Origin: Escherichia phage D2
DNA length: 49,197 nt
Sequence record: OM475427
Strand: one strand, 5' to 3'
Shown piece after piece: positions 15,408 through 47,606 of this stretch; within the stretch, counting starts at the first letter, position 1, and each line of letters opens with the position of its first letter. The notes under the pieces are model-generated. The model was not told the origin of the DNA, made no database searches, and worked only from the letters and a program-made list of their open reading frames with translations. Made by a program: the position numbers and the translations under genes.

Positions 15408-18400
15408 ATGGGTAAAGGAAGCAGTAAGGGGCATACCCCGCGCGAAGCGAAGGACAACCTGAAGTCCACGCAGTTGCTGAGTGTGATCGATGCCATCAGC
15501 GAAGGGCCGATTGAAGGTCCGGTGGATGGCTTAAAAAGCGTGCTGCTGAACAGTACGCCGGTGCTGGACACTGAGGGGAATACCAACATATCCGGTGTCA
15601 CGGTGGTGTTCCGGGCTGGTGAGCAGGAGCAGACTCCGCCGGAGGGATTTGAATCCTCCGGCTCCGAGACGGTGCTGGGTACGGAAGTGAAATATGACAC
15701 GCCGATCACCCGCACCATTACGTCTGCAAACATCGACCGTCTGCGCTTTACCTTCGGTGTACAGGCACTGGTGGAAACCACCTCAAAGGGTGACAGGAAT
15801 CCGTCGGAAGTCCGCCTGCTGGTTCAGATACAACGTAACGGTGGCTGGGTGACGGAAAAAGACATCACCATTAAGGGCAAAACCACCTCGCAGTATCTGG
15901 CCTCGGTGGTGATGGGTAACCTGCCGCCGCGCCCGTTTAATATCCGGATGCGCAGGATGACGCCGGACAGCACCACAGACCAGCTGCAGAACAAAACGCT
16001 CTGGTCGTCATACACTGAAATCATCGATGTGAAACAGTGCTACCCGAACACGGCACTGGTCGGCGTGCAGGTGGACTCGGAGCAGTTCGGCAGCCAGCAG
16101 GTGAGCCGTAATTATCATCTGCGCGGGCGTATTCTGCAGGTGCCGTCGAACTATAACCCGCAGACGCGGCAATACAGCGGTATCTGGGACGGAACGTTTA
16201 AACCGGCATACAGCAACAACATGGCCTGGTGTCTGTGGGATATGCTGACCCATCCGCGCTACGGCATGGGGAAACGTCTTGGTGCGGCGGATGTGGATAA
16301 ATGGGCGCTGTATGTCATCGGCCAGTACTGCGACCAGTCAGTGCCGGACGGCTTTGGCGGCACGGAGCCGCGCATCACCTGTAATGCGTACCTGACCACA
16401 CAGCGTAAGGCGTGGGATGTGCTCAGCGATTTCTGCTCGGCGATGCGCTGTATGCCGGTATGGAACGGGCAGACGCTGACGTTCGTGCAGGACCGACCGT
16501 CGGATAAGACGTGGACCTATAACCGCAGTAATGTGGTGATGCCGGATGATGGCGCGCCGTTCCGCTACAGCTTCAGCGCCCTGAAGGACCGCCATAATGC
16601 CGTTGAGGTGAACTGGATTGACCCGAACAACGGCTGGGAGACGGCGACAGAGCTTGTTGAAGATACGCAGGCCATTGCCCGTTACGGTCGTAATGTTACG
16701 AAGATGGATGCCTTTGGCTGTACCAGCCGGGGGCAGGCACACCGCGCCGGGCTGTGGCTGATTAAAACAGAACTGCTGGAAACGCAGACCGTGGATTTCA
16801 GCGTCGGCGCAGAAGGGCTTCGCCATGTACCGGGCGATGTTATTGAAATCTGCGATGATGACTATGCCGGTATCAGCACCGGTGGTCGTGTGCTGGCGGT
16901 GAACAGCCAGACCCGGACGCTGACGCTCGACCGTGAAATCACGCTGCCATCCTCCGGTACCGCGCTGATAAGCCTGGTTGACGGAAGTGGCAATCCGGTC
17001 AGCGTGGAGGTTCAGTCCGTCACCGACGGCGTGAAGGTAAAAGTGAGCCGTGTTCCTGACGGTGTTGCTGAATACAGCGTATGGGAGCTGAAGCTGCCGA
17101 CGCTGCGCCAGCGACTGTTCCGCTGCGTGAGTATCCGTGAGAACGACGACGGCACGTATGCCATCACCGCCGTGCAGCATGTGCCGGAAAAAGAGGCCAT
17201 CGTGGATAACGGGGCGCACTTTGACGGCGAACAGAGTGGCACGGTGAATGGTGTCACGCCGCCAGCGGTGCAGCACCTGACCGCAGAAGTCACTGCAGAC
17301 AGCGGGGAATATCAGGTGCTGGCGCGATGGGACACACCGAAGGTGGTGAAGGGCGTGAGTTTCCTGCTCCGTCTGACCGTAACAGCGGACGACGGCAGTG
17401 AGCGGCTGGTCAGCACGGCCCGGACGACGGAAACCACATACCGCTTCACGCAACTGGCGCTGGGGAACTACAGGCTGACAGTCCGGGCGGTAAATGCGTG
17501 GGGGCAGCAGGGCGATCCGGCGTCGGTATCGTTCCGGATTGCCGCACCGGCAGCACCGTCGAGGATTGAGCTGACGCCGGGCTATTTTCAGATAACCGCC
17601 ACGCCGCATCTTGCCGTTTATGACCCGACGGTACAGTTTGAGTTCTGGTTCTCGGAAAAGCAGATTGCGGATATCAGACAGGTTGAAACCAGCACGCGTT
17701 ATCTTGGTACGGCGCTGTACTGGATAGCCGCCAGTATCAATATCAAACCGGGCCATGATTATTACTTTTATATCCGCAGTGTGAACACCGTTGGCAAATC
17801 GGCATTCGTGGAGGCCGTCGGTCGGGCGAGCGATGATGCGGAAGGTTACCTGGATTTTTTCAAAGGCAAGATAACCGAATCCCATCTCGGCAAGGAGCTG
17901 CTGGAAAAAGTCGAGCTGACGGAGGATAACGCCAGCAGACTGGAGGAGTTTTCGAAAGAGTGGAAGGATGCCAGTGATAAGTGGAATGCCATGTGGGCTG
18001 TCAAAATTGAGCAGACCAAAGACGGCAAACATTATGTCGCGGGTATTGGCCTCAGCATGGAGGACACGGAGGAAGGCAAACTGAGCCAGTTTCTGGTTGC
18101 CGCCAATCGTATCGCATTTATTGACCCGGCAAACGGGAATGAAACGCCGATGTTTGTGGCGCAGGGCAACCAGATATTCATGAACGACGTGTTCCTGAAG
18201 CGCCTGACGGCCCCCACCATTACCAGCGGCGGCAATCCTCCGGCCTTTTCCCTGACACCGGACGGAAAGCTGACCGCTAAAAATGCGGATATCAGTGGCA
18301 GTGTGAATGCGAACTCCGGGACGCTCAGTAATGTGACGATAGCTGAAAACTGTACGATAAACGGTACGCTGAGGGCGGAAAAAATCGTCGGGGACATTGT

Positions 18401-18797
18401 AAAGGCGGCGAGCGCGGCTTTTCCGCGCCAGCGTGAAAGCAGTGTGGACTGGCCGTCAGGTACCCGTACTGTCACCGTGACCGATGACCATCCTTTTGAT
18501 CGCCAGATAGTGGTGCTTCCGCTGACGTTTCGCGGAAGTAAGCGTACTGTCAGNCCAACAGTCATACTGGTATTCAACCTGTAAGCTGCAGGTGCTGAAG
18601 AACGGACAGGAAATCTTTCAGCAACCCGCGACGGATGTCAGCAGGGTATTTTCATCAGTCATTGATATGCCTNGTGGAGTGCAGGTATACAGATTAATCC
18701 GGCAGCGTCCGTCGTTGTTGATATTGCTTATGAAGGCTCCGGCAGTGGCGACTGGCGTACTGACGGATTCATCGTTGGGGTCGGTTATAAATTCTGA
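15408..18797 (+). CDS. J: Tail tip/host specificity protein J; apparent frameshifts near the 3' end coincide with ambiguous bases
   Basis: 1058-aa ORF 15408-18584 is lambda J-like. Frame moves to +1 near n at 18554 and back near n at 18672; the last segment (..[31 protein letters not shown]) is again in the start frame, and total length is a multiple of 3. Confidence 0.8.
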
Positions 18798-28647: not shown

Positions 28648-28671
28648 TCACTACATGTGTTAAATATTTAA

Positions 28672-30843: not shown

Positions 30844-30865
30844 CTGATGATTTTGCTTTTCATGT

Positions 30866-32964: not shown

Positions 32965-32969
32965 TCGTT

Positions 32970-33824: not shown

Positions 33825-33945
33825 TGATAATAGCTATTGTTATTGGCTGTATCAATACTTATTGCTATTGATTGATGTGTTTTGATATTAACTGTTTGAT
33901 AGCAAAAAGAATTAATTTTGTGACTTGTATCGCATAGCGATAACT
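33825..33945. promoter_or_regulatory. Putative leftward early promoter/operator region (OL-like)
   Basis: Contains GCTATTGTTAT (33833-33843) and TTGCTATTGAT (~33862-33872), motifs that recur in the cI-cro intergenic region, plus palindrome TATCGCATAGCGATA (33928-33942). Lies between the cIII-like gene and the cargo cassette. Confidence 0.35.
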
Positions 33946-33990
33946 GAAGGGAGGATGTGGTGGTTTTTCGAACGGTTTGTGTGATGAGGG

Positions 33991-34020
33991 GACAAAAGAA
34001 AACCCGGCACGGTGGCCGGG
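33991..34020 (-). terminator. Rho-independent terminator downstream of the ASCH gene
   Basis: On the minus strand, hairpin CCCGGCCACCGUGCCGGG followed by UUUUCUUUUGU, immediately after the stop of ORF 34025-34402. Confidence 0.5.
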
Positions 34021-34024
34021 ATTC

Positions 34025-34402
34025 TTACGCAGGTAGGTAAAGATATGATTGTGGTGGCTTAATATTACTACCTAGAGCAGAGATAGGAATTGGTTCTTTA
34101 TATCTTTCCACTTCACCAATTTTTATTGCGTAGGCCTTTTCTCTACCTGAATAATATGAGTCATAAAATTGCTTAGAAATACCTGCGTGTTTTTCCGTCT
34201 TTTTCCAAAGAGATTCCGGTTCGTCACTTAGTATTGATTCAATACGGAATTGACCAACAACTTTACCTAATGGCATCGTGGCATAAATAACAACGGTGCT
34301 AATTTGCGGATTTTTGAATATACCTTTACGAAACTCGAACCGCTTTGTTCCGTTCAATATTTTTTCTGCAAACTCAGGCTTAATGGATAATAAAACTTTC
34401 AT
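34025..34402 (-). CDS. ASCH-domain protein (125 aa)
   Basis: N-terminal G-x-K-x-x-E-x-R motif (NGTKRFEFRK) characteristic of ASCH/PUA-like domains; AT-rich; overlaps the upstream gene by 23 nt. Confidence 0.6.
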   Translation of the reverse strand: MKVLLSIKPEFAEKILNGTKRFEFRKGIFKNPQISTVVIYATMPLGKVVGQFRIESILSDEPESLWKKTEKHAGISKQFYDSYYSGREKAYAIKIGEVERYKEPIPISALGSNIKPPQSYLYLPA

Positions 34403-35453
34403 TTATCTTGCCTAACTCGATGATCTTTAAGAACTGCTCATTTGTGAGTTTAAAGTGACTCCATCGGAATGCACGCGAACCATTTAGCCCCACATGATCT
34501 ATTAAAATAGCACGATTGGGTCTCTTTGGCAAAGACAGATTGTATGTGAATCTTATAATGAAAGGGTATCGACGTTCTTTATAGATTTTTCTGAGTTCAT
34601 CTTCAGAAAATACGCTAAAACGAATACAATAGTCTACAAAACTATCTTCGCTTAAAAATTCAGAAATATTTTTTACGCTCTCAACTACACATAATGTACT
34701 GGCTACAGAACGATAGCGAGCTGGCCCTTTTTTGTCTCCGGTTCTATAGATGACAATGATATCTCCTCTTTTCATTCCCATCACAGAACGCATTCCACAT
34801 ATGTAAATTTTATGAATGCTGTTAGCATGGGATATATCTTTGACAATATCTGGTGATTCATTTACAAGTTTTGAATCAGGGAATAGTCTAGTGTGATATT
34901 CGGGATAAATCGCCAGTAAATATTTGTTGGCCCTTGATGTCATTATTCGAGGGTAATCTAATAAAATATCACCATAAGGCTCATGCAAAGACCTCGCATA
35001 TACAAACTCTTTCCCGTTATGTGTTTCTTTTTCACCATGAATGTAAAATCCGTACGTTTGGAAAAGTTTTATTAGATGGACGTGTTTGTCGAAAACAGTA
35101 ACATAAATATCATCAGATTTTGATGAAAATGCATGGTCAAACGCTTTTTTTAGAAATCGTTGTCCGCGAAGGGTGCCTTTAGATTCAAATTTGAATGTTC
35201 CTATCTTTAGATGACGTCCTGGTGGGAGCGCTGGATTAATGTCATTTGCATCATCATTTTCTTTTAGATACATAAAACCTTCGATTTTATGCTTGTCATC
35301 ATAGAGCACATAAGCTGATTCTCCTTCTCTGGCTTTTTTTTCTAACCAAAGAGGAAACTCTTTATAATCTTTTTTTAAAGAGTCAAAAAATGGGTCATTG
35401 TGATCAAAATCAGAGAATTTCTCATATTTTAAAGTATCCATTAAGTTCTCCAT
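34380..35453 (-). CDS. Hypothetical 357-aa protein, possible GNAT-like N-terminal region, unknown C-terminal domain
   Basis: Long AT-rich ORF directly downstream of cI on the same strand. Weak acetyltransferase-like motif (KGTLRGQRFLKKAF..VTVFDKHVHLIKLFQTYGF). C-terminal half has a D..ExK-like pattern (GDIIVIYRTGD..LCVVESVK). No confident family assignment. Confidence 0.45.
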   Translation of the reverse strand: MENLMDTLKYEKFSDFDHNDPFFDSLKKDYKEFPLWLEKKAREGESAYVLYDDKHKIEGFMYLKENDDANDINPALPPGRHLKIGTFKFESKGTLRGQRFLKKAFDHAFSSKSDDIYVTVFDKHVHLIKLFQTYGFYIHGEKETHNGKEFVYARSLHEPYGDILLDYPRIMTSRANKYLLAIYPEYHTRLFPDSKLVNESPDIVKDISHANSIHKIYICGMRSVMGMKRGDIIVIYRTGDKKGPARYRSVASTLCVVESVKNISEFLSEDSFVDYCIRFSVFSEDELRKIYKERRYPFIIRFTYNLSLPKRPNRAILIDHVGLNGSRAFRWSHFKLTNEQFLKIIELGKINESFIIH

Positions 35454-35521
35454 TCTAAAATGAATAATTAAGTTGTTTTACTGAATGAGCACAATGCCCG
35501 GTTGATAATTTTTAATTGGTA

Positions 35522-36214
35522 CTATCCATGCTTCCTATACGTCTGCGGCATGCTCCCAATAACTTTCCCGAAGATAAATACCCGGTTCATCTCATCTTTC
35601 TCGATCGGGTCCCACGGTGAGTAGCTTTTGTTATCAGAGATAACCAGCAGCTTATCCTTCATCATTTGCAGGCGCTTTACATGGGCTGTGTCGTCGTACA
35701 GAAACGCATAGATACCATCACCGTCGAAAGATTTAACCGTGATATCAACGAATAGAAGATCACCAGGTTCAATCGTTCCTGACATGCTGTCACCGCGTAC
35801 GTTAATGATGCGGATATTTTCTGCCTTCCTACCATCGAACATGTGACGAGCATCGTCAAACGAGTACTCAACCGAGCGTAGAACTTCTACAAACTCACGG
35901 TTGATGACTCCCGGCCCGGCACTCACTTCTATATCAAGAACGTCAATCTTGAAGTATTTGGGATGGTTGGCAGTAGGCTTCCCTAATTGTTGACCGTCAT
36001 TTCTCATCGGGCCTATGCCTGATGAGAGCCACTCTGTTCGAACACCCAATGCATTAGCTATTTCAACAATTTTTGTTGAGCCGCGCGCGTTGCCGCTTGT
36101 CAGTCTCCAGATTGTGGGTTGAGCTACGCCAGACGCCTTTGCAAGAGCGCCTTGAGACATTCCAGATTGTTCCATCGCTAGGTTTAAGCGATCAGCAAGA
36201 GTTTCTTTTTTCAT
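35522..36214 (-). CDS. cI: CI-like prophage repressor (HTH plus LexA/S24 peptidase-like domain)
   Basis: N-terminal HTH (MSQGALAKASGVAQPTIWRL) and C-terminal S24-like domain with GDSM (Ser) and VKRL (Lys) motifs. ATG at 36214 preferred; the ORF track extends to a TTG at 36250. Divergently placed against cro. Confidence 0.85.
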   Translation of the reverse strand: MKKETLADRLNLAMEQSGMSQGALAKASGVAQPTIWRLTSGNARGSTKIVEIANALGVRTEWLSSGIGPMRNDGQQLGKPTANHPKYFKIDVLDIEVSAGPGVINREFVEVLRSVEYSFDDARHMFDGRKAENIRIINVRGDSMSGTIEPGDLLFVDITVKSFDGDGIYAFLYDDTAHVKRLQMMKDKLLVISDNKSYSPWDPIEKDEMNRVFIFGKVIGSMPQTYRKHG

Positions 36215-36324
36215 AAGTTTTAATTTATACGCTTGCGTATTGATGGTCAAAACACGTTTTGCTATTGTTATGATTAATACGCATTGCTATTATTTATTCA
36301 TTGTAATACCAATAGGAATTAATA
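36215..36324. promoter_or_regulatory. Putative OR/PRM-PR operator-promoter region between cI and cro
   Basis: Perfect palindrome ATACGCTTGCGTAT (36227-36240), related ATACGCATTGCTAT (36277-36290), and GCTATTGTTAT (36261-36271) / TTGCTATTAT (36284-36293), shared with the OL-like region. Confidence 0.45.
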
Positions 36325-36552
36325 ATGACAAATCAAACCATTCAACTCGCAATCAGTATTACAGGTAGTCAAAAACGACTGGCAGATCTATGCGGTGTAG
36401 CCCAGCCCACTGTTTGGCGTTGGCTACACGGTGGCGGAATTGATGCCCGCTATGTAATGAAAATTGTCTCAGCCACTGGTGGAAAGATTAAACCAGCAGA
36501 TATTCGTCCCGACCTCGCACCATTGTTTAACGCGAGTAATTCTGCCGCCTAA
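36325..36552 (+). CDS. cro: Cro-like HTH regulator (YdaS family)
   Basis: 75 aa, HTH (SQKRLADLCGVAQPTVWRWLHGG), divergent from cI. Confidence 0.7.
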   Translation: MTNQTIQLAISITGSQKRLADLCGVAQPTVWRWLHGGGIDARYVMKIVSATGGKIKPADIRPDLAPLFNASNSAA

Positions 36553-36576
36553 TCTGCGGCGTTAACTGATAAGGCA

Positions 36577-37122
36577 ATGACTATGCAACCACTTACATAC
36601 CAACAGACTAGCGGATTTAGCCCGACTGCGGTGATAAATCGTTCTCAAACAAAACAGGCGCCAGGCCACGAAAAAATCCGTGATGCCGTTCGCGCCTGGT
36701 CGGCTGCAGATAATCAGGATGTTGTTGCCGCACTCATTGTGAATGAGTATCGGGAGCAGGGCGGCGGCACCATCGATTTTCCTGATGATGTCAGCCGTGC
36801 ACGCCAGAAGCTGTTCCGCTTCCTCGATAACAAATTCGATTCTGAAAAATACCGAAATAACGTGCGTGAACTGACCCCGGCAATTCTGGCGGTACTACCG
36901 CTGGAATATCGCGGCCACCTGGTTGAGCAGGATAGCTTCATGGCTCGGCTGGCTGAAATGGAAAAGGAACTCAGTGAGGCAAAACAGGCTGTCATTCTCA
37001 ACGCACCACGCCACCAGAAACTGAAGGAGATGAGTGAAGGCATTGTGTCGATGTTTCGTGTGGACCCGGATCTGGCTGGTCCACTGATGGCGATGGTCAC
37101 CACCATGCTGGGGGCAATATGA
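36577..37122 (+). CDS. YdaT-family protein in the cII position
   Basis: 181 aa; EYREQGGG and LTPAILAVLPLEYRGHL resemble Rac prophage YdaT (EYLRQGGG, LIPAILAILPRELRHRL); located right after cro. Confidence 0.55.
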   Translation: MTMQPLTYQQTSGFSPTAVINRSQTKQAPGHEKIRDAVRAWSAADNQDVVAALIVNEYREQGGGTIDFPDDVSRARQKLFRFLDNKFDSEKYRNNVRELTPAILAVLPLEYRGHLVEQDSFMARLAEMEKELSEAKQAVILNAPRHQKLKEMSEGIVSMFRVDPDLAGPLMAMVTTMLGAI

Positions 37123-37208
37123 CAGGTTCGGAAATGGCGAAAGCCGGTCTGCGCGAACAGAACCGACTTTCAGGTGCAAATCGTAACACACTCATTGCGG
37201 GAGGAATT

Positions 37209-38140
37209 ATGGCAAACACTGCTGAGATATTCAATTTTCCAGTGCCGGATGTGGCACAAAAGGAGCCGCGCGTGGCAGATCTCGATGATGGTTATACGCG
37301 CATTGCAAATGAGTTGCTGGAAGCTGTGATGCTGGCCGGATTAACACAGCACCAGCTTCTGGTCTTCCTGGCTGTCATGCGCAAAACATATGGCTTTAAT
37401 AAAAAACTGGATTGGGTGAGCAACGAGCAACTTTCCGAGTTGACCGGGATATTGATTCTCAACTTAGCGAGATTACAAAGTTACCTGTCAAACGGTGCAA
37501 TGAAGCCAAGTTAGAACTCGTCAGAATGAATATTATCAAGCAGCAAGGCGGCATGTTTGGACCAAATAAAAACATCTCAGAATGGTGCATCCCTCAAAAC
37601 GAGGGAAAATCCCCTAAAACGAGGGATAAAACATCCCTCAAATTGGGGGATTGCTATCCCTCAAAACAGGGGGACACAAAAGACACTATTACAAAAGAAA
37701 AAAGAAAAGATTATTCGTCAGAGAATTCTGGCGAATCCTCTGACCAGCCAGAAAACGACCTTTCTGTGGTGAAACCGGATGCTGCAATTCAGAGCGGCAG
37801 CAAGTGGGGGACAGCAGAAGACCTGACCGCCGCAGAGTGGATGTTTGACATGGTGAAGACTATCGCACCATCAGCCAGAAAACCGAATTTTGCTGGGTGG
37901 GCTAACGATATCCGCCTGATGCGTGAACGTGACGGACGTAACCACCGCGACATGTGTGTGCTGTTCCGCTGGGCATGCCAGGACAACTTCTGGTCCGGTA
38001 ACGTGCTGAGCCCGGCCAAACTCCGCGATAAGTGGACCCAACTCGAAATCAACCGTAACAAGCAACAGGCAGGCGTGACAGCCAGCAAACCAAAACTCGA
38101 CCTGACAAACACAGACTGGATTTACGGGGTGGATCTATGA
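37209..38140 (+). pseudogene. O: Replication initiator O, split by a frameshift at a ~30-bp imperfect tandem duplication
   Basis: N-terminal part (ORF to 37514) is a diverged O N-domain. C-terminal part (ORF 37412-38140) matches lambda O from DSQLSEITKLPVKRCNEAKLELVRMNIIKQQGGMFGPNKNISEWCIPQNEGKSPKTRDK... in a different frame. The junction has two adjacent homologous copies (SNEQLSELTG / DSQLSEITK). Confidence 0.7.
37588..37720 (+). repeat. ori-lambda: four iterons plus AT-rich region inside O
   Basis: ATCCCTCAAAACGAGGGA, AAATCCCCTAAAACGAGGGA, ACATCCCTCAAATTGGGGGA, CTATCCCTCAAAACAGGGGGA, then ACAAAAGAAAAAAGAAAAGATTATTCG, matching the lambda origin. Confidence 0.85.
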
Positions 38141-38838
38141 AAAACATCGCCGCACAGATGGTTAACTTTGACCGTGAGCAGATGCGTCGGATCGCCAACA
38201 ACATGCCGGAACAGTACGACGAAAAGCCGCAGGTACAGCAGGTAGCGCAGATCATCAACGGTGTGTTCAGCCAGTTACTGGCAACTTTCCCGGCGAGCCT
38301 GGCTAACCGTGACCAGAACGAAGTGAACGAAATCCGTCGCCAGTGGGTTCTGGCTTTTCGGGAAAACGGGATCACCACGATGGAACAGGTTAACGCAGGA
38401 ATGCGCGTAGCCCGTCGGCAGAATCGACCATTTCTGCCATCACCCGGGCAGTTTGTTGCATGGTGCCGGGAAGAAGCATCCGTTACCGCCGGACTGCCAA
38501 ACGTCAGCGAGCTGGTTGATATGGTTTACGAGTATTGCCGGAAGCGAGGCCTGTATCCGGATGCGGAGTCTTATCCGTGGAAATCAAACGCGCACTACTG
38601 GCTGGTTACCAACCTGTATCAGAACATGCGGGCCAATGCGCTTACTGATGCGGAATTACGCCGTAAGGCCGCAGATGAGCTTGTCCATATGACTGCGAGA
38701 ATTAACCGTGGTGAGGCGATCCCTGAACCAGTAAAACAACTTCCTGTCATGGGCGGTAGACCTCTAAATCGTGCACAGGCTCTGGCGAAGATCGCAGAAA
38801 TCAAAGCTAAGTTCGGACTGAAAGGAGCAAGTGTATGA
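38137..38838 (+). CDS. P: Replication protein P (DnaB helicase loader)
   Basis: 233 aa, lambda P sequence and length. Confidence 0.95.
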   Translation: MKNIAAQMVNFDREQMRRIANNMPEQYDEKPQVQQVAQIINGVFSQLLATFPASLANRDQNEVNEIRRQWVLAFRENGITTMEQVNAGMRVARRQNRPFLPSPGQFVAWCREEASVTAGLPNVSELVDMVYEYCRKRGLYPDAESYPWKSNAHYWLVTNLYQNMRANALTDAELRRKAADELVHMTARINRGEAIPEPVKQLPVMGGRPLNRAQALAKIAEIKAKFGLKGASV

Positions 38839-39125
38839 CGGGCAAAGAGGCAATTATTCATTACCTGGGGACGCATAATAGCTTCTGTGCGCCGGACGTT
38901 GCCGCGCTAACAGGCGCAACAGTAACCAGCATAAATCAGGCCGCGGCTAAAATGGCACGGGCAGGTCTTCTGGTTATCGAAGGTAAGGTCTGGCGAACGG
39001 TGTATTACCGGTTTGCTACCAGGGAAGAACGGGAAGGAAAGATGAGCACGAACCTGGTTTTTAAGGAGTGTCGCCAGAGTGCCGCGATGAAACGGGTATT
39101 GGCGGTATATGGAGTTAAAAGATGA
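38835..39125 (+). CDS. ren: Ren
   Basis: 96 aa, lambda Ren (MTGKEAIIHYLGTHNSFCAPDVAALTGATVTSINQAAAKMARAGLLVIEGKVWRTVYYRFATREERE...). Confidence 0.9.
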   Translation: MTGKEAIIHYLGTHNSFCAPDVAALTGATVTSINQAAAKMARAGLLVIEGKVWRTVYYRFATREEREGKMSTNLVFKECRQSAAMKRVLAVYGVKR

Positions 39126-39150
39126 CCATCTACATTACTGAGCTAATAAC

Positions 39151-39180
39151 AGGCCTGCTGGTAATCGCAGGCCTTTTTAT
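39151..39180 (+). terminator. tR2-like rho-independent terminator
   Basis: Hairpin AGGCCTGC..GCAGGCCT followed by TTTTTATTT immediately after ren. Confidence 0.5.
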
Positions 39181-39198
39181 TTGGGGGAGAGGGAAGTC

Positions 39199-39537
39199 AT
39201 GAAAAAACTAACCTTTGAAATTCGATCTCCAGCACATCAGCAAAACGCTATTCACGCAGTACAGCAAATCCTTCCAGACCCAACCAAACCATTATGGCCA
39301 TCTGTTGGTACAATTATTTGTTATTGTGCATCATTCTGGTTATTAGCTCAGACGCTGGCTTATATACCTACAGGGATTGCTTATGCTATCTGGTCAGGAG
39401 TCGGTATTGTCCTGATTAGCTTACTATCATGGGGATTTTTCGGCCAACGGTTGGACCTGCCAGCCATTATAGGCATGATGTTGATTTGTGCCGGTGTGTT
39501 GGTTATTAATTTATTGTCACGAAGCACACCACATTAA
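39199..39537 (+). pseudogene. In-frame fusion of ninB 5' end (32 codons) to emrE 3' end (about 80 codons)
   Basis: MKKLTFEIRSPAHQQNAIHAVQQILPDPTKP (lambda NinB N-terminus) joined to WPSVGTIICYCASFWLLAQTLAYIPTGIAYAIWSGVGIVLISLLSWGFFGQRLDLPAIIGMMLICAGVLVINLLSRSTPH (EmrE from about residue 31); lacks EmrE TM1. Confidence 0.7.
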
Positions 39538-39792
39538 AAATAATTTATTTTTAAACGACTAAAATATGGAGGTTCGTATATTTGTATGGGCCTCGTTTTA
39601 TGCTTTTTGTTAATGTCTTTAGTTTTTATTCATTCTTTTGATCTTTCAAGACCATGGTGTAAGAAAATTGCAATACGATTATTGTTGTATATTCAAGATA
39701 ATGTGACCTTAATTGTCTTTTTAAATAAAAATTAAACAAAAATCATATCTCACCACTAAGGTTTATAAAAGCATACTTTAGCAGGTGTCACC

Positions 39793-41319
39793 ATGAAAAA
39801 AGCCATAGCATATATGCGATTTTCATCACCAGGTCAGATGTCTGGTGATTCATTAAACCGCCAGAGAAGGCTTATTACTGAATGGCTAAAGGTAAATAGT
39901 GATTATTACCTTGATACCGTAACGTATGAAGATTTGGGGTTAAGCGCATTCAATGGAAAGCATGCACAATCAGGAGCTTTTTCGGAATTTTTAGATGCTA
40001 TAGAACATGGTTACATATTGCCAGGGACTACATTGTTAGTTGAAAGTCTGGACAGACTTTCAAGAGAAAAAGTCGGTGAAGCGATTGAGCGTCTGAAATT
40101 GATTTTGAATCACGGTATTGATGTTATAACTCTTTGCGATAATACAGTCTATAATATAGACTCATTGAATGAGCCATATTCATTAATAAAAGCCATACTT
40201 ATAGCACAAAGGGCAAATGAAGAAAGCGAGATAAAGTCAAGTCGGGTTAAATTATCATGGAAGAAAAAACGGCAGGATGCACTGGAATCAGGCACGATTA
40301 TGACGGCGTCTTGTCCGAGATGGCTCTCATTGGATGACAAAAGAACAGCTTTTATTCCAGACCCCGACAGGGTGAAAACGATTGAGCTAATTTTTAAACT
40401 CAGGATGGAAAGGCGATCATTGAATGCAATAGCTAAGTATTTAAATGATCATGCTGTAAAAAATTTTTCAGGAAAAGAAAGTGCATGGGGGCCTTCTGTA
40501 ATTGAAAAATTATTAGCGAATAAAGCTCTGATAGGTATATGCGTACCTTCATATCGTGCAAGAGGGAAAGGGATAAGTGAAATCGCTGGCTATTATCCCA
40601 GAGTCATATCAGATGATTTGTTTTACGCTGTACAGGAAATTCGGTTGGCACCTTTTGGTATTAGCAATAGTAGCAAGAATCCTATGCTAATAAATCTACT
40701 TCGAACAGTTATGAAGTGTGAGGCTTGTGGTAATACCATGATTGTTCATGCGGTATCTGGACGTTTGCATGGCTATTATGTTTGTCCGATGAGAAGATTA
40801 CATCGATGTGACAGGCCATCAATAAAAAGAGATTTGGTTGATTATAATATCATTAATGAATTGCTTTTTAATTGTAGCAAAATTCAACCAGTTGAAAACA
40901 AGAAAGATGCTAATGAAACTTTAGAGTTAAAAATTATTGAGCTTCAGATGAAAATTAATAATTTAATCGTTGCATTGTCTGTCGCGCCTGAAGTTACCGC
41001 TATAGCAGAGAAAATAAGACTATTAGATAAGGAATTACGAAGGGCTTCGGTATCATTAAAAACTTTGAAGAGTAAAGGGGTGAGTTCACTTGGTGATTTT
41101 CATGCTATTGATTTAACCAGTAAAAATGGGCGAGAGCTATGTCGTACACTTGCCTATAAAATATTCGAAAAAATTATAATTAATACAGATAATAAAACCT
41201 GTGATATCTATTTTATGAATGGCATTGTTTTTAAACACTATCCTTTAATGAAAGTAATATCCGCCCAGCAGGCGATAAGTACTCTTAAATATATGGTTGA
41301 TGGTGAGGTTTATTTTTGA
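39793..41319 (+). CDS. ybcK: Large serine recombinase (DLP12 YbcK-like)
   Basis: 508 aa; N-terminal resolvase/invertase catalytic domain (AYMRFSSPGQ..SLNRQ) and large C-terminal recombinase/zinc-ribbon domain; AT-rich. Confidence 0.85.
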   Translation: MKKAIAYMRFSSPGQMSGDSLNRQRRLITEWLKVNSDYYLDTVTYEDLGLSAFNGKHAQSGAFSEFLDAIEHGYILPGTTLLVESLDRLSREKVGEAIERLKLILNHGIDVITLCDNTVYNIDSLNEPYSLIKAILIAQRANEESEIKSSRVKLSWKKKRQDALESGTIMTASCPRWLSLDDKRTAFIPDPDRVKTIELIFKLRMERRSLNAIAKYLNDHAVKNFSGKESAWGPSVIEKLLANKALIGICVPSYRARGKGISEIAGYYPRVISDDLFYAVQEIRLAPFGISNSSKNPMLINLLRTVMKCEACGNTMIVHAVSGRLHGYYVCPMRRLHRCDRPSIKRDLVDYNIINELLFNCSKIQPVENKKDANETLELKIIELQMKINNLIVALSVAPEVTAIAEKIRLLDKELRRASVSLKTLKSKGVSSLGDFHAIDLTSKNGRELCRTLAYKIFEKIIINTDNKTCDIYFMNGIVFKHYPLMKVISAQQAISTLKYMVDGEVYF

Positions 41320-41643
41320 GTAATAATCACTTTTTCAACCGTGCTATGGTATGAAAGTAAAGTAACTAATATGATATTAACTATCTTGAACGAAGCGCCC
41401 TGAGCTATAGTTTTACTATAGGCACTGTCACTGGATGTTGGCATTCTTGCTCTAGTAGCTCAACAATACCCAATCACAAAACAATTCACTGATAACAAAC
41501 TTTGTGCACGTGCTTGGTTATGGCGAACAGGTGATGTTAACCTCTTGCCAGAATGCCACTCCACTTCATTAAGTATCTGAGCACCGAGAGGCTGGTCACG
41601 CCCCCATTAAAAATAATTTCTTTTGAATCGAGTGAAATAGGTT

Positions 41644-41670
41644 AGCCCGCATAAGTGCGGGCTGCTTTTT
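41644..41670 (+). terminator. Rho-independent terminator between convergent ybcK and esterase genes
   Basis: Hairpin AGCCCGC-ATAAGT-GCGGGCT followed by GCTTTTT. Confidence 0.45.
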
Positions 41671-42712
41671 ACAGGTCAGCGTTTGTTTTTTGTTGTTGGG
41701 TAGCGGTTTTTATGGGGGTTCCCAGGTTTTTAGTAAACCACTCAACAACTCTGTTTATAATAATTGGCTGATACCATGTATTATCGCCATGCTCGGCCCC
41801 TTCTACCAGCACGTACTCAGCGTTATCACCGTTCTTCTTCAACATCCTGAATAGTTTGGCGCTTTGCTCAGGTGAAACCAGAGTGTCTTTGCTACCATGC
41901 ATAATAAGAAATGGGGGTTTTACTCCTTTCATATGTCCGATTGGACTGGCGTTTAGCGCTTTTTCTTTTGACGCTGTGATGGGGGCTCCCGCAAAATTTC
42001 TGAATGCAGGGCCATTGATCATTAAGGCTTCGGTTACGGCAGGAGAGCGATGAACCTCCTGCACTGATTCAGGGAACCCCTCGCCAATATTCAACAAGTC
42101 AGAAATCCCATAAAGTGTGGCAACTGCCTGAACATCTGAGGATTGCTGAAGAAAGTCACCTTTATCAAAGGTTTTGTCACCATTTGTAGTTCCCATCATC
42201 TGGGCAAGCCATCCACCGGCAGAGTCACCCAGAACTCCGATTCTTTGAGGATCAATCCCATAATTGCTGGCATGCTCTCTCAGGTAACGTATTGCAGCTT
42301 TTCCATCCTCAACTGGTGCTGGAAATGTATCAGGAATTGTTCTGTATTCTACAGCGGCCACAACAAAACCAGCTTCTGCCAGAGCCATTCTCATTTCAAT
42401 AAATTTGTCATGTTCAGAAGACATGAATCCGCCGCCGGGATAATAAATAATGGCTGGTTTTAAATCATTTGTTCGCGGGACAAGAACTGACATGTGAAGC
42501 TGTCTGACAGAACGAGTTCCTTTTATCTGGGAATAAACAACATCACCAATGAGATCGACCTGGTTTCTGGTCGGTGAAACACTAATGATATCTGCACCCG
42601 GGGTGTAACCAGGAAGATTAGTCTGGACAGGTGTTGCACAACTCCCGACCGACATGGCCATTGACATACCATACAATAGTGTTGCAGATGATAATATCTT
42701 GTTAATTTTCAT
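41669..42712 (-). CDS. Secreted alpha/beta-hydrolase (esterase/lipase-like), probable lipoprotein
   Basis: Signal peptide with lipobox-like SVGSC; HGG-type oxyanion motif (YYPGGGF); nucleophile elbow GDSAGG; C-terminal HG (GAEHGD). Confidence 0.7.
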   Translation of the reverse strand: MKINKILSSATLLYGMSMAMSVGSCATPVQTNLPGYTPGADIISVSPTRNQVDLIGDVVYSQIKGTRSVRQLHMSVLVPRTNDLKPAIIYYPGGGFMSSEHDKFIEMRMALAEAGFVVAAVEYRTIPDTFPAPVEDGKAAIRYLREHASNYGIDPQRIGVLGDSAGGWLAQMMGTTNGDKTFDKGDFLQQSSDVQAVATLYGISDLLNIGEGFPESVQEVHRSPAVTEALMINGPAFRNFAGAPITASKEKALNASPIGHMKGVKPPFLIMHGSKDTLVSPEQSAKLFRMLKKNGDNAEYVLVEGAEHGDNTWYQPIIINRVVEWFTKNLGTPIKTATQQQKTNADL

Positions 42713-43159
42713 GTTTTACATGCCTTGACTTATCGGATGAAATTCTCTTACTGAATTTAACGGCAGTTTAATAGCCGTACAACTCGTGGTAGCCAGGGAA
42801 ATATCCCAGTCGTGGTTAAGGTTGTACTTGACGGCTATTATTTCAACAATGCTTAAAGTGAGAGCTTAAGGTTATGCGTATGTTTTACAGTCCGAGTAGA
42901 TTCTGACCAATAGCTTCTTTGTATAATTCTGTCAGAAATAAATCTTGGCTTGCATGAAGTTTGAGACCTTATCTTGTTTGATTATGAATAATCAATTCGC
43001 CATAATTGTATCACCGGAGCCTGAACAACTCCGGTGACTTCTGCGCTAAACGGGGACGTTTATGCGCACACACAATCCAAACTCTCTTCTCCCTTCACAG
43101 ATGCAGAAATGCACCTGCGTTTTTTTGCATCCAGCGTCTGACCTCTGTGGAGGTGAAGC

Positions 43160-43615
43160 GTGAACCTACCACAAGATGGCATCAAACTGCATCGCGGTAA
43201 CTTCATCGCTATCGGCCAGCAGATCCAGCCTTATCTGGAGGACGGAAAATGCTTTCGCATGGTGCTTAAACCGTGGCGTGAGAAACGCAGTCTTTCCCAG
43301 AATGCACTCAGCCATATGTGGTACAGCGAAATCAGTGAATACCTCATCAGCAGGGGGAAATCGTTCGCTACCGCAGCATGGGTAAAAGATGCTCTCAAAC
43401 ACACATACCTCGGTTATGAAACCAAGGACCTGGTTGATGTCGTAACCGGCGAAATCACTACTATCCAGTCGTTACGCCATACCTCCGATCTTGATACCGG
43501 AGAGATGTATGTCTTCCTGTGTAAGGTTGAAGCCTGGGCGATGAATATTGGCTGCCACCTGACTATTCCGCAGAGCTGCGAGTTCCAGCTGCTGCGCGAC
43601 AAGCAGGAGGCGTAA
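43160..43615 (+). CDS. ybcN: YbcN / NinB-family protein
   Basis: 151 aa, GTG start with GGAGGTG RBS; DLP12 ybcN-like; shares the S-L-S-Q-N motif seen in NinB/Orf-family proteins. Confidence 0.7.
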
Positions 43616-43785
43616 TGGCTACACCGCTTATTCGTGTCATGAACGGACACATCTACAAAGTACCAAATCGTCGTAAGCGTAAACCTGAGCTGAAGCCATC
43701 CGAAATACCAACACTGCTCGGGTATACCGCCAGCCTGGTTGATAAAAAATGGTTGCGACTGGCAGCAAGGAGGAATCATGGCTGA
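43615..43785 (+). CDS. ninE: NinE
   Basis: 56-aa [59 protein letters not shown], overlapping the ybcN stop (TAATG). Confidence 0.7.
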   Translation: MATPLIRVMNGHIYKVPNRRKRKPELKPSEIPTLLGYTASLVDKKWLRLAARRNHG

Positions 43786-44068
43786 TTTGAGAAAAGCAGC
43801 GCGTGGTCGGGAATGCCAGGTAAGAATCCCTGGCGTATGTAATGGCAATCCTGAAACGTCAGTACTGGCACATATCCGGCTGGCTGGATTGTGCTGTACC
43901 GGTATCAAACCGCCAGACCTGATTGCCACCATTGCATGTTCTGCCTGCCACGACGAAATCGACCGTCGCACGCATTTTGTTGACGCTGGATATGCAAAAG
44001 AATGCGCGCTGGAAGGTATGGCGAGAACACAGGTTATCTGGCTGAAAGAGGGGGTAATTAAGGCGTGA
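43778..44068 (+). CDS. ybcO: YbcO-like protein (DUF1364, putative nuclease)
   Basis: 96 aa from ATG preceded by AGGAGG; cysteine-rich ([20 protein letters not shown]). Confidence 0.7.
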
Positions 44069-44427
44069 ATACTTACCACATCACACTACCCTGGCCGCCG
44101 AGCAATAATCGCTATTACCGCCATAATCGCGGACGCACGCATATCAGCGCAGAGGGGCAGGCATACCGCGATAATGTCGCCCGAATCATTAAAAACGCAA
44201 TGCTGGATATCGGCCTGGCTATTCCTGTGAAAATCAGCATTGAGTGCCACATGCCGGATCGCCGTCGCCGTGACCTTGATAATCTGCAAAAGGCCGCTTT
44301 TGACGCACTCACCAAAGCAGGTTTCTGGCTGGATGATGCTCAGGTCGTTGATTACCGCGTTGTGAAGATGCCCGTTACCAAAGGTGGGAAGCTGGAGCTG
44401 ACTATCACTGAACTGGGAGATGAATGA
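44065..44427 (+). CDS. rusA: Holliday junction resolvase RusA
   Basis: 120 aa, [38 protein letters not shown]... matches RusA. Confidence 0.9.
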
Positions 44428-44564
44428 TGTTTGAGTCTTATATGGCAGAGCGTCTTCGCCGCCGCTGGGTGCGCCTGCGCTTATATCGTTTTCCTGGTTC
44501 TGTTTTGACCGATTACCGAATACTGAAGAATTACGCCAAAACCCTGACAGGAGCAGGAGTATGA
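44424..44564 (+). CDS. ylcG: YlcG-like small protein
   Basis: 46-aa [49 protein letters not shown] overlapping the rusA stop. Confidence 0.5.
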
Positions 44565-44649
44565 AGTCAGAGATAACAATCAACTAATACTGTTTTGTTG
44601 ATTTTTGCTTGTAATTGGCGTTCTGGTCTGATTTTTGTGGAGTAAGTTG

Positions 44650-45033
44650 ATGCGTGATATTCAGATGGTTCTTGAGCGTTGGGGAGCGTGGGCGGCTAAT
44701 AATCATGAAGATGTGACCTGGTCGTCCGTTGCCGCCGGTTTTAAGGGATTAATTCCTTCAAAAGTAAAATCTCGCCCGCAATGTTGTGACGATGACGCGA
44801 TGATCATTTGCGGGTGCATGGCCCGTCTGAAAAAGAACAACAGCGATTTACACGATTTATTAGTAGATTATTATGTATGTGGTATGACATTCATGTCACT
44901 GGCAAGTAAGCATTGCTGCTCGGATGGTTATATCGGGAAAAGGTTACAGAAGGCTGAGGGCATAATTGAAGGGATGTTAATGGCATTAGATATCCGGTTA
45001 GATATGGATATCGTTGCTAATAATTCTAATTGA
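44650..45033 (+). CDS. quuD: Late gene antiterminator Q (QuuD / Q21-82 type)
   Basis: [39 protein letters not shown]...; cysteine-rich zinc-binding region ([12 protein letters not shown]); followed by a terminator about 140 nt downstream. Confidence 0.8.
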
Positions 45034-45059
45034 TATGCAATTGTTTACTAAAAGTTATT

Positions 45060-45083
45060 AAAAATGGGGCGTGGAAACGCCCC
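45060..45083 (-). terminator. Possible minus-strand terminator downstream of nmpC
   Basis: On the minus strand, GGGGCGUUUCCACGCCCC followed by AUUUUUAAUAACUUUU. Confidence 0.3.
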
Positions 45084-45170
45084 CAAAATAAAGGGTAATA
45101 TATAACAGAAGGTTTATATAGTAAGAAGCAAGGTAGTGCTTCTAAAGGAAGTGGCTTGAGGGCTCCACTT

Positions 45171-45210
45171 ATATGTTGCGGAGGCAAAGCCTCCCGCAAC
45201 ATATCTTTTT
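45171..45210 (+). terminator. tR'-like rho-independent terminator downstream of Q (end of a 6S-like late leader)
   Basis: 15-bp stem ATATGTTGCGGAGGC/GCCTCC(C)GCAACATAT with AAA loop, followed by CTTTTTCG. Confidence 0.5.
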
Positions 45211-45221
45211 CGTAAGTCAGA

Positions 45222-46304
45222 TTAGAACTGATAAACCAGACCTACAGCGACGATGTCGTCGGTATCAATACCAGCTGTTTTGGTAAACTTACTATCGTCA
45301 ATTAAGTTGATTTTGTAATCAACAAAAGTGGACATGTTTTTATTAAAGTAGTAAGTAGCACCGACATCGACATACTTGACTAAGTCTCGGTCACCATGAA
45401 CACCAAGGTCTTTACCTTTTGACTGAAGGTAAGCAACAGATGGTCGCAGACCGAAGTCAAACTGATATTGTGCTACTGCTTCAAAGTTTTGTGCTTTGTT
45501 TGCAATATGGTTATTACCAAAAACGGTCATATTCTGAGTTTCAGAATATGTGGTAGCCAGATAGATATTGTTCGCATCATATTTCAGGCCTGCAGCCCAT
45601 ACTTCCGCATTTTTGCCGGAGGCATTGAATTTGCTCTTACCATAGGCGACCTGACCGTCAGTGCGATCTGATTTAGCATAGGTTGCACCCACGCCGAATC
45701 CTTCATACTCATAAGTAGTGGAGAAACCGAAACCATCACCATTGACTTCAGTTACGTCAGTGCGGTCATTTTTACCCTGATACTGAGCAGCAAAGTTCAG
45801 GCCATCGACCAGACCAAAGAAGTCGTTGTTACGATAAGTTGCAACACCAGTAGTGCGACCAGTCATGAACACATCTGTTTGGGTCCAGGTATCACCACCG
45901 AATTCTGGCAGGACGTCAGTCCACGCACCGATGTCGTATGCTACACCGTAGTTACGGCCGTAATCGATTGAGCCGTAATCACCAAATTTCAGGCCTGCAA
46001 ATGCAAGACGGGTTTTGTCTTTGGAAGAACCTTGAGATTCAGCACGGTTGCCTTTGAATTCATATTCCCACTGACCGAAACCAGTCAGTTGATCGTTGAT
46101 TTGGGTTTCACCTTTGAAGCCAAGACGGGCATAAGTAGTATCACCATCATCTGCATCATTAGAGGAGAAGTAGTGCTTGGCATTAACTTTCCCGTATAGA
46201 TCCAGCTTGTTACTGTCTTTATTATAAATTTCAGCTGCCTGAGCAGACATCGCCATCAGTACTGATGCAGCTACAGCAGAAATTGCCACTGTTAATTTTT
46301 TCAT
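45222..46304 (-). CDS. nmpC: Outer membrane general porin (NmpC/OmpD/OmpC family), apparently intact
   Basis: 360 aa; signal peptide ending AQA; mature N-terminus AEIYNKD..KLDLYGK; C-terminal VGLVYQF with terminal Phe. Confidence 0.85.
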
Positions 46305-46893
46305 TGTACGCCCTTTTTTTTGAACTATTATTAAAAAATGATGTCACTGCGCGATAAATATTCATCTAATCAATGCGATTATTTCAAGATGTAAGTTTTA
46401 GTTTCTCATTTAATTTGTGAAGTAGATCTCTATTTTTATCTGAACCTTTTCTATCTAATCCTATTCATGGCTCTTGTTTGAACGAAAATAAATCTATTAG
46501 CTAATTTATATTAATGGCACTTATTTATAAGCGCTCTATAATTCTTTAGCTTAATTTAAACAAACTAAAAATAACATCGGAAATTATTCATTGGTTATTT
46601 GTTGAAGTTTTCTTATGTATTTGTGGTGGTGTTTTGAACACTCGGTGGCATTCTCACAAATATCATTTAGTAGTTTACGTACGTAAAAAATTGGTTATGC
46701 TGTTAAGAGTGGTTACTTCGTCACACAGCTTAAACCCGCCGTCGAGCGGGTTTTTCCATTTTTTGAGTCTCGATATTAGCTGATAACCCAATACCTGAGT
46801 TATTCACTGACTCCGAATCTGTTACGTTTCTGCCTTTATTGCGATACGTAGTATCCCCTTAATTTACACCCGCTTTGTCTGCGAGGTGGGGTT

Positions 46894-47109
46894 ATGAAAT
46901 CCATGGATAAGTTAACAACGGGTGTCGCCTATGGCACCTCAGCAGGTAGTGCCGGGTACTGGTTTTTACAGTTGCTCGATAAAGTCACTCCGTCACAGTG
47001 GGCTGCAATCGGTGTGCTGGGTAGCCTGGTTTTTGGCCTGCTGACGTATCTGACAAATCTTTATTTCAAGATTAAAGAAGACAGGCGTAAGGCTGCGAGA
47101 GGAGAGTAA
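46894..47109 (+). CDS. essD: Pinholin (S21-type class II holin) with dual-start motif
   Basis: 71 aa, [26 protein letters not shown]..., two TMDs; Met1-Lys-Ser-Met4 dual start as in phage 21 S21. Confidence 0.85.
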
Positions 47110-47113
47110 TCCA

Positions 47114-47606
47114 ATGACTCAAGACTATGAACTGGTTGTGAAAGGAGTCCGGTGGGGCTGTTGCCATAGCGTCTGTGCTCATCACTGGTCCGAGTGGTGA
47201 CGATGGCCTGGAAGGTGTCAGCTACATACCATACAAAGATATCGTTGGCGTATGGACTGTATGTCACGGACACACCGGAAAAGACATCATGCTCGGTAAA
47301 ACGTATACCGAAGCAGAATGCAAAGCCCTCCTGAATAAAGACCTTGCCACTGTCGCCAGACAAATTAACCCGTACATCAAAGTCGATATACCGGAAACAA
47401 CGCGCGGCGCTCTTTGCAGCAGATTAAGGAGCGTGGCGCTTTANCNNNNNNTNNATCGTGGTGATATCCGTCAGGCAATCGACCGTTGCAGCAATATCTG
47501 GGCTTCACTGCCGGGCGCTGGTTATGGTCAGTTCGAGCATAAGGCTGACAGCCTGATTGCAAAATTCAAAGAAGCGGGCGGAACGGTCAGAGAGATTGAT
47601 GTATGA
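47114..47606 (+). pseudogene. R: Endolysin, chimeric: P21-type lysozyme 5' part joined out of frame to lambda R transglycosylase 3' part
   Basis: Frame 0 (47175-~47405) encodes SAR-lysozyme-like [79 protein letters not shown]. From ~47411 another frame reads [10 protein letters not shown]; after an n run, [49 protein letters not shown] (lambda R C-terminus). The 5' ATG at 47114 is in yet another frame. Confidence 0.6.

What the first reader, a model, noticed from the sequence alone, without database searches (positions are those of the whole stretch)
39199..39537. In-frame ninB'-'emrE hybrid ORF downstream of ren
The first 32 codons match lambda NinB and are fused in frame to the last ~80 codons of the SMR efflux pump EmrE, which is itself DLP12 prophage cargo in E. 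coli K-12. The product lacks EmrE TM1, which carries the essential Glu14, so it is not a functional transporter, but it could be expressed from the delayed-early promoter as a truncated membrane protein. The junction records a deletion or recombination event between two prophage types.
Basis: partly seen in the sequence, partly recalled or inferred. Interest (0 to 1): 0.45.

Follow-up and report, generated by a model that had tools for sequence, protein, structure and literature searches.

The report
ninB-emrE fusion is an assembly chimera
The in-frame ninB'-'emrE open reading frame is really written in the sequence, but it sits at one of about sixteen seams in a patchwork of phage lambda pieces pasted onto the genome of phage 4A7, so it is almost certainly a sequence-assembly artefact and not a gene made by recombination.

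Summary
The ORF is present as described, at 39199-39537 (+), 112 codons. Codons 1-31 are lambda NinB and codons 32-112 are EmrE residues 30-110. TM1 and Glu14 are missing. The joint is lambda 40736 | 4A7 39312 (window 39291|39292), with no shared bases.

It is very unlikely to be biological. The window is the public 4A7 record base for base, starting at the same arbitrary base inside nu1, overlaid with eight lambda patches. Each patch encloses the stretches where lambda and 4A7 share exact matches of 20 nt or more. Each then overshoots the outermost match by 190-365 nt into DNA with no homology. The ninB|emrE seam is the right-hand overshoot (181-190 nt) of the O-P-ren patch, and it keeps the exact alignment register of that block. 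Homologous recombination would place crossovers inside the shared blocks.

Sister seams frameshift J and O and fuse two unrelated endolysins. Runs of N lie just inside several patch ends. The junction is absent from 50,697 phage records, 5,426 E. coli genomes, IMG/VR, GTDB genomes and JGI metagenomes.

Verdict: observation confirmed, but the feature is a cross-mapping or chimeric-consensus artefact. Interest is low.

The parts
39199..39537 (+). Hybrid ORF of 112 aa: lambda NinB residues 1-31 joined to EmrE residues 30-110 (TM2-TM4)
39291..39292 (.). The seam: lambda 40736 | 4A7 39312 (...AAACCA|TTATGG...). There are 0 nt of shared identity, and the diagonal lambda minus 4A7 = 1425 is identical to that of the upstream O-P-ren homology block.
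37454..39291 (+). Lambda patch D, 100% identical to lambda 38899-40736: the 3' part of O, P, ren, tR2 and ninB codons 1-31. The homologous core with 4A7 is only window 37674-39110; the rest is overshoot (220 nt left, 181 nt right).
39151..39184 (+). Lambda tR2 intrinsic terminator (stem-loop plus T run), directly upstream of the hybrid ORF. It replaces the native ren-emrE spacer of 4A7.
   Evidence: The tR2 identity comes from lambda coordinates and established knowledge of the nin region.
39292..47415 (+). 4A7 backbone: 'emrE, ylcJ-like ORF, ybcK serine recombinase, esterase (- strand), ybcN, ninE, ybcO, rusA, ylcG, Q, nmpC/ompD-type porin (- strand), holin and the 5' part of the endolysin
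37119..37514 (+). Sister seam at 37454: replication gene O is frameshifted. The 4A7-type N-terminal part runs into a stop at 37514, and the lambda O C-terminal part lies in another frame (37412-38140).
15408..18584 (+). Sister seams at 18553/18554(N)/18555 and 18672/18673(N)/18674: tail-tip gene J is frameshifted and truncated (1058 aa against 1132). A 118-nt 4A7 island is followed by the 3' end of lambda lom.
47175..47606 (+). Sister seam at 47415: the endolysin ORF fuses the 4A7 SAR-lysozyme N-terminal part to the C-terminal part of the unrelated lambda R transglycosylase. A run of N lies at 47444-47454.

Best explanation
The ninB'-'emrE ORF is a seam of a chimeric consensus sequence, not a gene formed in a cell. 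The window is the genome record of phage 4A7 (genus Bievrevirus, DLP12-like). Wherever lambda-type DNA shares a seed of identity with 4A7, lambda sequence has overwritten the 4A7 sequence. Each overwritten stretch carries along roughly one read length (about 200-350 nt) of lambda-only flank on each side. The P-ren region is about 96% identical between the two phages. The lambda overlay anchored there runs on for 181 nt past the end of homology, through lambda tR2 and the first 31 codons of ninB. It then stops, and the 4A7 text resumes at the position-equivalent base, which happens to be codon 30 of emrE. The two reading frames coincide, a 1-in-3 chance, so an ORF results. What is shown: the patch geometry, the exact register, the lack of homology at the seams, the broken essential genes, the Ns, and the uniqueness of the junction. 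What is inferred: the process. The likeliest is reads from a lambda-like phage or prophage in the same sample cross-mapping onto a 4A7 reference, or being used to polish a 4A7 draft. Host-derived icd and IS reads appear to have done the same at two other places.
For: 1; the non-lambda parts match the 4A7 record LR595864 exactly. Window 1-593 equals 4A7 1-593, so the window starts at the same arbitrary base inside nu1. Segments 4435-7496, 33547-37454 and 47896-48676 have 0 mismatches.
2; there are eight lambda patches at 99.7-100% identity: 573-1266, 3930-4437, 7497-18553, 18674-19396, 30375-33546, 37454-39291, 47414-47896 and 48677-49197.
3; seven of the eight patches, all but the one over cos, enclose lambda/4A7 exact matches of 20 nt or more and overshoot the outermost one by 190-365 nt. 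Patches holding a single seed are symmetric about it (339/335, 247/235, 200/202). Only 2 of about 230 such matches lie outside a patch.
4; at the 11 seams inspected, the left parent does not continue after the seam and the right parent does not match before it. The ninB|emrE seam has 0 nt of microhomology.
5; that seam joins lambda 40736 to 4A7 39312 on diagonal 1425, exactly the diagonal of the O-P-ren block that ends 181-190 nt upstream. The internal patches replace 4A7 DNA length for length, to within 0-4 nt.
6; sister seams frameshift J and O and fuse two unrelated endolysin types. The genome as written could not be a viable phage, yet it spans cos like a complete phage genome.
7; the window holds 58 Ns. 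Runs of them lie at seams or 10-40 nt inside patch ends (18554, 18673, 33508-33521, 47444-47454, 47854-47861, 48688-48691).
8; the junction is absent from 50,697 phage records, 5,426 complete E. coli genomes, IMG/VR, GTDB genomes and JGI metagenomes. The exact protein is absent from the gene-position index.
9; two further patches are not lambda. Window 28364-28743 resembles the chromosomal icd gene at the phage attachment region, and 22893-23433 is a different IS66-type copy. This fits reads from a whole lysogen genome.
Against: No reads or coverage data are available, so the artefact is inferred and not observed. The pipeline that would paste unclipped read ends into a consensus is not identified. 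Standard short-read aligners would soft-clip 180 nt of non-homology. Register is not perfectly kept at every seam: there are offsets of 1-4 nt at patches A, B, C and the left end of D. The overshoot is not a single constant. An in-frame junction with an intact ribosome-binding site is what a selected fusion would also look like.
Confidence: 0.88

Rival explanations
1. A genuine illegitimate (end-joining or replication-slippage) recombination joint in a real lambda x Bievrevirus hybrid phage or prophage. It would fuse NinB 1-31 to EmrE 30-110, giving a truncated three-helix membrane protein read through from pR past tR2 during lytic growth.
For: The ORF is intact and in frame and keeps lambda ninB's ribosome-binding site and ATG. 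Lambda is known to pick up DNA from DLP12-type defective prophages (established knowledge: qsr' substitutions; De Paepe et al. 2014, PMC3945230, listed but not read here). Both flanks are 100% identical to known phages.
Against: There is zero microhomology. The joint lies exactly on the diagonal of the homology block 181-190 nt upstream, which a random illegitimate joint would hit with a probability of order 1 in hundreds. It is one of about 16 seams with the same geometry. Sister seams destroy J, O and the endolysin. It is found in no other record.
Confidence: 0.06
2. Product of homologous (Red or RecA) recombination between lambda and a 4A7-like prophage. The window would then be a true multi-crossover hybrid.
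For: The patches coincide with the regions the two phages share. Lambda Red tolerates diverged substrates (De Paepe et al. 2014, PMC3945230, listed but not read here).
Against: Crossovers must lie inside shared sequence. Here every inspected patch end lies 160-365 nt outside it, in DNA with no similarity. Homologous exchange would not frameshift O or J.
Confidence: 0.02
3. A deliberately built or simulated chimera: an in-silico recombinant made from a lambda/4A7 alignment, or a designed construct.
For: The same features that support the artefact reading apply: 4A7 coordinates are kept from base 1, replacement conserves length, and seams ignore gene integrity.
Against: The scattered Ns, the host-like icd and IS patches and the variable overshoot look like noisy read data and not a clean simulation. 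A designed phage would not break J and O.
Confidence: 0.04

Closest known systems
EmrE / SMR family transporter (Pfam PF00893), as encoded by DLP12 of E. coli K-12 and by Bievrevirus phages 4A7 and 4C10
   Same: Residues 32-112 of the hybrid are identical to EmrE 30-110 of 4A7 and differ by one residue from K-12 EmrE. TM2-TM4 and the downstream terminator-like hairpin are retained.
   Different: It lacks profile positions 1-25, that is TM1 with the essential Glu14. It also lacks the native ren-emrE spacer, where a native promoter would be expected (established knowledge, not tested). It cannot be a proton-coupled antiporter.
Lambda NinB (Orf) recombination mediator (Pfam PF05772)
   Same: The first 31 codons, the ribosome-binding site, the upstream tR2 and ren are 100% lambda.
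   Different: Only 31 of 146 residues are present. The Pfam score of 15.9 is below the 23.8 cutoff, so no fold can form.
Lambda-DLP12 substitution phages (lambda qsr', lambda p4) and other hybrids made by homologous exchange with defective prophages
   Same: The same two kinds of parent are involved, and the same region (nin to lysis genes) is of DLP12 type.
   Different: Those hybrids arise by crossovers within shared sequence and are viable. Here the seams lie outside shared sequence and essential genes are broken.
Cross-mapping or reference-guided consensus chimeras in published phage and prophage assemblies
   Same: The features match: the reference's start coordinate is kept, foreign patches are centred on shared seeds with read-length overshoot, length is conserved, Ns lie at patch ends, and the sequence overhangs the reference end by 47 nt.
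   Different: The exact software route is not identified and no read evidence is available.

Membership tests
SMR (EmrE) transporter family | Four transmembrane helices in about 105-110 aa, covering the full PF00893 profile | tested here: not met
   only profile positions 26-93 of 93 match. EmrE residues 1-29 are absent.
SMR (EmrE) transporter family | Membrane-embedded Glu14 in TM1, needed for proton and drug binding | tested here: not met
   the ILAEVIG segment is replaced by hydrophilic NinB sequence.
SMR (EmrE) transporter family | TM4 dimerisation helix | tested here: met
   residues 87-110 of EmrE are present and identical to 4A7 EmrE. The role of TM4 is from established knowledge.
NinB/Orf family | Full NinB domain scoring above the Pfam gathering threshold | tested here: not met
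   15.9 bits against a cutoff of 23.8; profile positions 2-31 of 131 only.
Homologous-recombination hybrid of lambdoid phages | Crossover lies within a stretch of sequence shared by both parents | tested here: not met
   0 nt are shared at the seam, and the nearest shared sequence ends 181-190 nt upstream.
Natural lambdoid mosaic joint | Joint recurs in independent phages or prophages, typically at gene boundaries | tested here: not met
   there is no other occurrence, and the joint lies inside both genes.
Chimeric consensus or cross-mapping artefact | Foreign patches coincide with cross-homologous seeds and overshoot them by no more than about a read length, keeping the reference's coordinates | tested here: met
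   eight patches with overshoots of 190-365 nt. Window base 1 equals 4A7 record base 1, and patch lengths are conserved to 0-4 nt.
Chimeric consensus or cross-mapping artefact | Seams ignore gene integrity, and ambiguous bases lie at patch ends | tested here: met
   J and O are frameshifted, the endolysin is a fusion of unrelated folds, and N runs lie at or within 10-40 nt of seams.
Chimeric consensus or cross-mapping artefact | No reads span the seam, and coverage steps at patch borders | not testable with these tools
   No read data are available.

The most novel reading that the evidence does not exclude
The junction is real. A lambda x 4A7-type hybrid would carry an illegitimate in-frame fusion of NinB(1-31) to EmrE(30-110), expressed as a delayed-early product. 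The three-helix EmrE fragment keeps the TM4 dimerisation helix, so it could pair with host full-length EmrE and act as a phage-encoded dominant-negative inhibitor of SMR efflux.
Probability: 0.05. Interest if true: 0.35.

Novelty: not a real feature. Interest (0 to 1): 0.06.

Why it matters
As biology it does not matter, because the fusion is most likely a by-product of how the sequence was put together. As quality control it does matter. The whole 49-kb window is a composite of the 4A7 record and lambda, plus host-like icd and IS fragments. Every 'hybrid gene', 'pseudogene' or 'mosaic boundary' read from it is therefore suspect, including truncated J, split O, the chimeric endolysin, and hybrid stf, A, B/C and Rz. 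Other first-stage findings from this window that sit on the seam coordinates listed here should be discounted in the same way. The geometric test used here is simple and reusable. Patches are checked for three things: whether they are centred on inter-genome exact matches, whether they overshoot by about a read length, and whether they keep the reference register.

Tried and rejected
1. I searched for the junction elsewhere.
- BLAST of junction-spanning queries against phages and E. coli genomes found only half-matches.
- Exact 25-35-mers were absent from IMG/VR, GTDB genomes and JGI metagenomes.
- The exact-protein look-up found nothing.

2. I tested whether K-12 DLP12 is the donor of the emrE side. 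It is rejected: 96.2% identity against 99.9-100% for 4A7.

3. I tested for microhomology at the joint and found none.

4. I tested whether 4A7-type phages carry a ninB remnant upstream of emrE that could guide recombination. There is no similarity between the lambda ninB 5' end and the 4A7 spacer or emrE 5' end.

5. My first model was 'homologous block plus about 200 nt overshoot' based on megablast blocks. It needed refinement when two extra lambda patches turned up inside the weakly similar terminase and portal genes. Exact-match seeds explain those patches too.

6. A strict column-for-column overlay does not hold everywhere, because offsets of 1-4 nt occur at some seams. I therefore claim only near conservation of length in general, and exact register at the ninB|emrE seam.

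7. Literature searches for a described ninB-emrE fusion, or for a lambda x 4A7 cross, found nothing relevant.

8. I did not run the large protein-homology searches or structure prediction. They could not bear on whether the seam is real.

Full report
**Observation.**
The window carries an ATG-initiated ORF at 39199-39537 (+), 112 aa.
- Window 38835-39291 is 100% identical to lambda 40280-40736. This covers ren, the 73-nt spacer with the tR2 hairpin (found at 39151-39174 plus a T run) and ninB codons 1-31.
- From 39292 the sequence matches emrE of the Bievrevirus phages 4A7 and 4C10, starting at codon 30. It continues as 4A7 for 8.1 kb, and 39292-44072 has 3 mismatches.
- The protein alignment reads NinB 1-31 followed by EmrE 30-110.
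- Pfam sees SMR profile positions 26-93 of 93, and NinB positions 2-31 of 131, the latter below its cutoff.
- K-12 DLP12 does carry emrE downstream of renD. It is only 96.2% identical to the window here, so it is not the donor.

**The joint itself.**
The sequence reads ...CCAACCAAACCA|TTATGGCCATC....
- Lambda continues ATCGTAG, and 4A7 is preceded by ...TACACGG. No base is shared across the seam.
- The lambda/4A7 homology that covers the 3' part of O, P and most of ren (95.8%) ends at lambda 40555. The last exact match of 20 nt or more ends at lambda 40546. The seam is 181-190 nt further on, in DNA where the parents are unrelated.
- The seam nevertheless joins lambda 40736 to 4A7 39312. That is diagonal 1425, exactly the diagonal of the homology block. 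From the ren start, both parents count 457 nt to the seam.
- An illegitimate joint has no reason to respect that register. A positional overlay does.

**The window as a whole.**
- Local BLAST against lambda and 4A7 shows that the window is the 4A7 record LR595864 wherever it is not lambda. Window 1-593 equals 4A7 1-593, so it starts at the same arbitrary base inside nu1.
- Segments 4435-7496, 33547-37454 and 47896-48676 have no mismatch to 4A7.
- Eight patches are lambda at 99.7-100%: 573-1266, 3930-4437, 7497-18553, 18674-19396, 30375-33546, 37454-39291, 47414-47896 and 48677-49197. Searches confirmed the first two.
- The last patch runs through cos (48864|48865 = lambda 48502|1). It overhangs the end of the 4A7 record by about 47 nt.

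**Geometry of the patches.**
I listed all exact matches between lambda and 4A7.
- Seven of the eight lambda patches, all but the one over cos, enclose matches of 20 nt or more, and each ends 190-365 nt beyond the outermost one.
- Patches with a single seed are symmetric about it. A 20-nt seed gives 339/335, a 26-nt seed gives 247/235, and an 80-nt seed gives 200/202.
- Only two of about 230 such matches lie outside a patch.
- At the 11 seams inspected, the two parents are unrelated on the 'wrong' side.
- The internal patches replace 4A7 DNA nearly length for length, to within 0-4 nt.
- Homologous recombination by Red or RecA puts crossovers inside shared sequence. It cannot put all of them a read length outside it.
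- The pattern is what is expected when fragments of a lambda-type genome are recruited by similarity to a 4A7 reference or draft and written into the consensus together with their non-matching ends.

**Supporting signs.**
- The window holds 58 Ns. Several runs sit at seams or 10-40 nt inside patch ends: 18554, 18673, 33508-33521, 47444-47454, 47854-47861 and 48688-48691.
- The seams ignore gene integrity. J is frameshifted at 18554 and ends at 18584, giving 1058 aa instead of 1132. A 118-nt 4A7 island and then the 3' end of lambda lom follow it.
- O is frameshifted at 37454.
- The endolysin ORF joins the N-terminal part of the 4A7 lysozyme to the C-terminal part of the unrelated lambda R transglycosylase.
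- A 49-kb sequence that spans cos like a packaged genome cannot be a viable phage with J and O broken.
- Two further patches are not lambda. Window 28364-28743 resembles chromosomal icd at the phage attachment region, and 22893-23433 is a different IS66-type copy. This suggests the reads came from a whole lysogen genome.

**Uniqueness.**
- Junction-spanning queries find only half-matches in 50,697 phage records and 5,426 complete E. coli genomes.
- Exact junction words are absent from IMG/VR, GTDB genomes and JGI metagenomes.
- The exact protein is not on record.
- Literature searches found no description of such a fusion.

**Explanation.**
The ninB'-'emrE ORF is the right-hand overshoot of the lambda patch anchored in O-P-ren. 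The lambda text runs 181 nt past the homology and stops. The 4A7 text resumes at the equivalent position, and the frames happen to agree.
- I put this at about 0.88.
- A real illegitimate joint is about 0.06. It fits the intact ORF, but not the register, the sister seams or the broken genes.
- A deliberate or simulated chimera is about 0.04.
- Homologous recombination is about 0.02.
- The process that made the chimera is inferred. I cannot name the software, and ordinary aligners would clip such ends. Iterative or unclipped map-to-reference consensus or local reassembly polishing are candidates.

**If it were real.**
The product would be a hydrophilic 31-residue NinB stub on EmrE TM2-TM4. It would lack Glu14 and so could not transport. 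It would be transcribed only by antiterminated read-through of tR2. It could conceivably pair with full-length host EmrE through TM4 and interfere with it. That reading is possible in principle but has about a 5% probability here.

**Verdict.**
The interpretation as a recombination record is not supported, and the feature is not real. Other findings from this window that sit on the seam coordinates should be treated the same way.

Noticed in passing
window 1-49197: The whole window is the 4A7 phage record (LR595864/NC_049946), starting at the same base, overlaid with eight lambda patches: 573-1266, 3930-4437, 7497-18553, 18674-19396, 30375-33546, 37454-39291, 47414-47896 and 48677-49197. Any hybrid gene at these borders is suspect.
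   Followed up: yes
window 18554, 18673, 23168-23199, 24038-24106, 24560-24687, 28613, 28738-28743, 29763, 33508-33521, 47444-47454, 47854-47861, 48688-48691: There are 58 N characters. Many lie at seams or 10-40 nt inside the ends of foreign patches. Others are scattered in the sitD region and near the attachment region.
   Followed up: partly
window 15408-18861: Tail-tip gene J is frameshifted by a single N at 18554 and stops at 18584. It is followed by a 118-nt 4A7 island (18555-18672), another N, and then the 3' end of lambda lom. 4A7 has no lom.
   Followed up: yes
window 37119-38140: Replication gene O is split into two frames at the 4A7|lambda seam at 37454. The lambda iterons (about 37589-37673, by offset from the lambda annotation) would sit behind a 4A7-type O N-terminal domain.
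   Followed up: partly
window 47109-48046: The endolysin is a fusion of the 4A7 SAR-type lysozyme and the lambda R transglycosylase, and its N-terminal signal-anchor part is also disturbed (differences at 46989-47150). Rz is a lambda/4A7 hybrid with an internal N run.
   Followed up: partly
window 28364-28743: This patch is neither 4A7 nor lambda. It resembles the chromosomal icd gene next to an integrase (at most 95% to any E. coli genome, with Ns). It looks as though reads from an integrated prophage junction were merged into the phage attP region.
   Followed up: partly
window 22893-23433: The 3' end of the IS66-family element inside the phage is replaced by a diverged copy, 86.6% identical to 4A7. 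It probably comes from another IS copy in the host genome.
   Followed up: partly
window 24115-27564, 39793-41319, 41669-42712, 45222-46304: The 4A7 backbone carries a notable cargo set: the sitABCD manganese/iron transporter, a YbcK-type large serine recombinase, an alpha/beta-hydrolase esterase with a signal peptide, and an NmpC/OmpD-type porin, in addition to emrE. These belong to the real 4A7 phage and are already annotated in its record.
   Followed up: no
window 44042-44086: Seven clustered substitutions relative to 4A7 lie at the ninE/ybcO-rusA region inside an otherwise identical stretch. They may be another small cross-mapped patch from a DLP12-like prophage.
   Followed up: no
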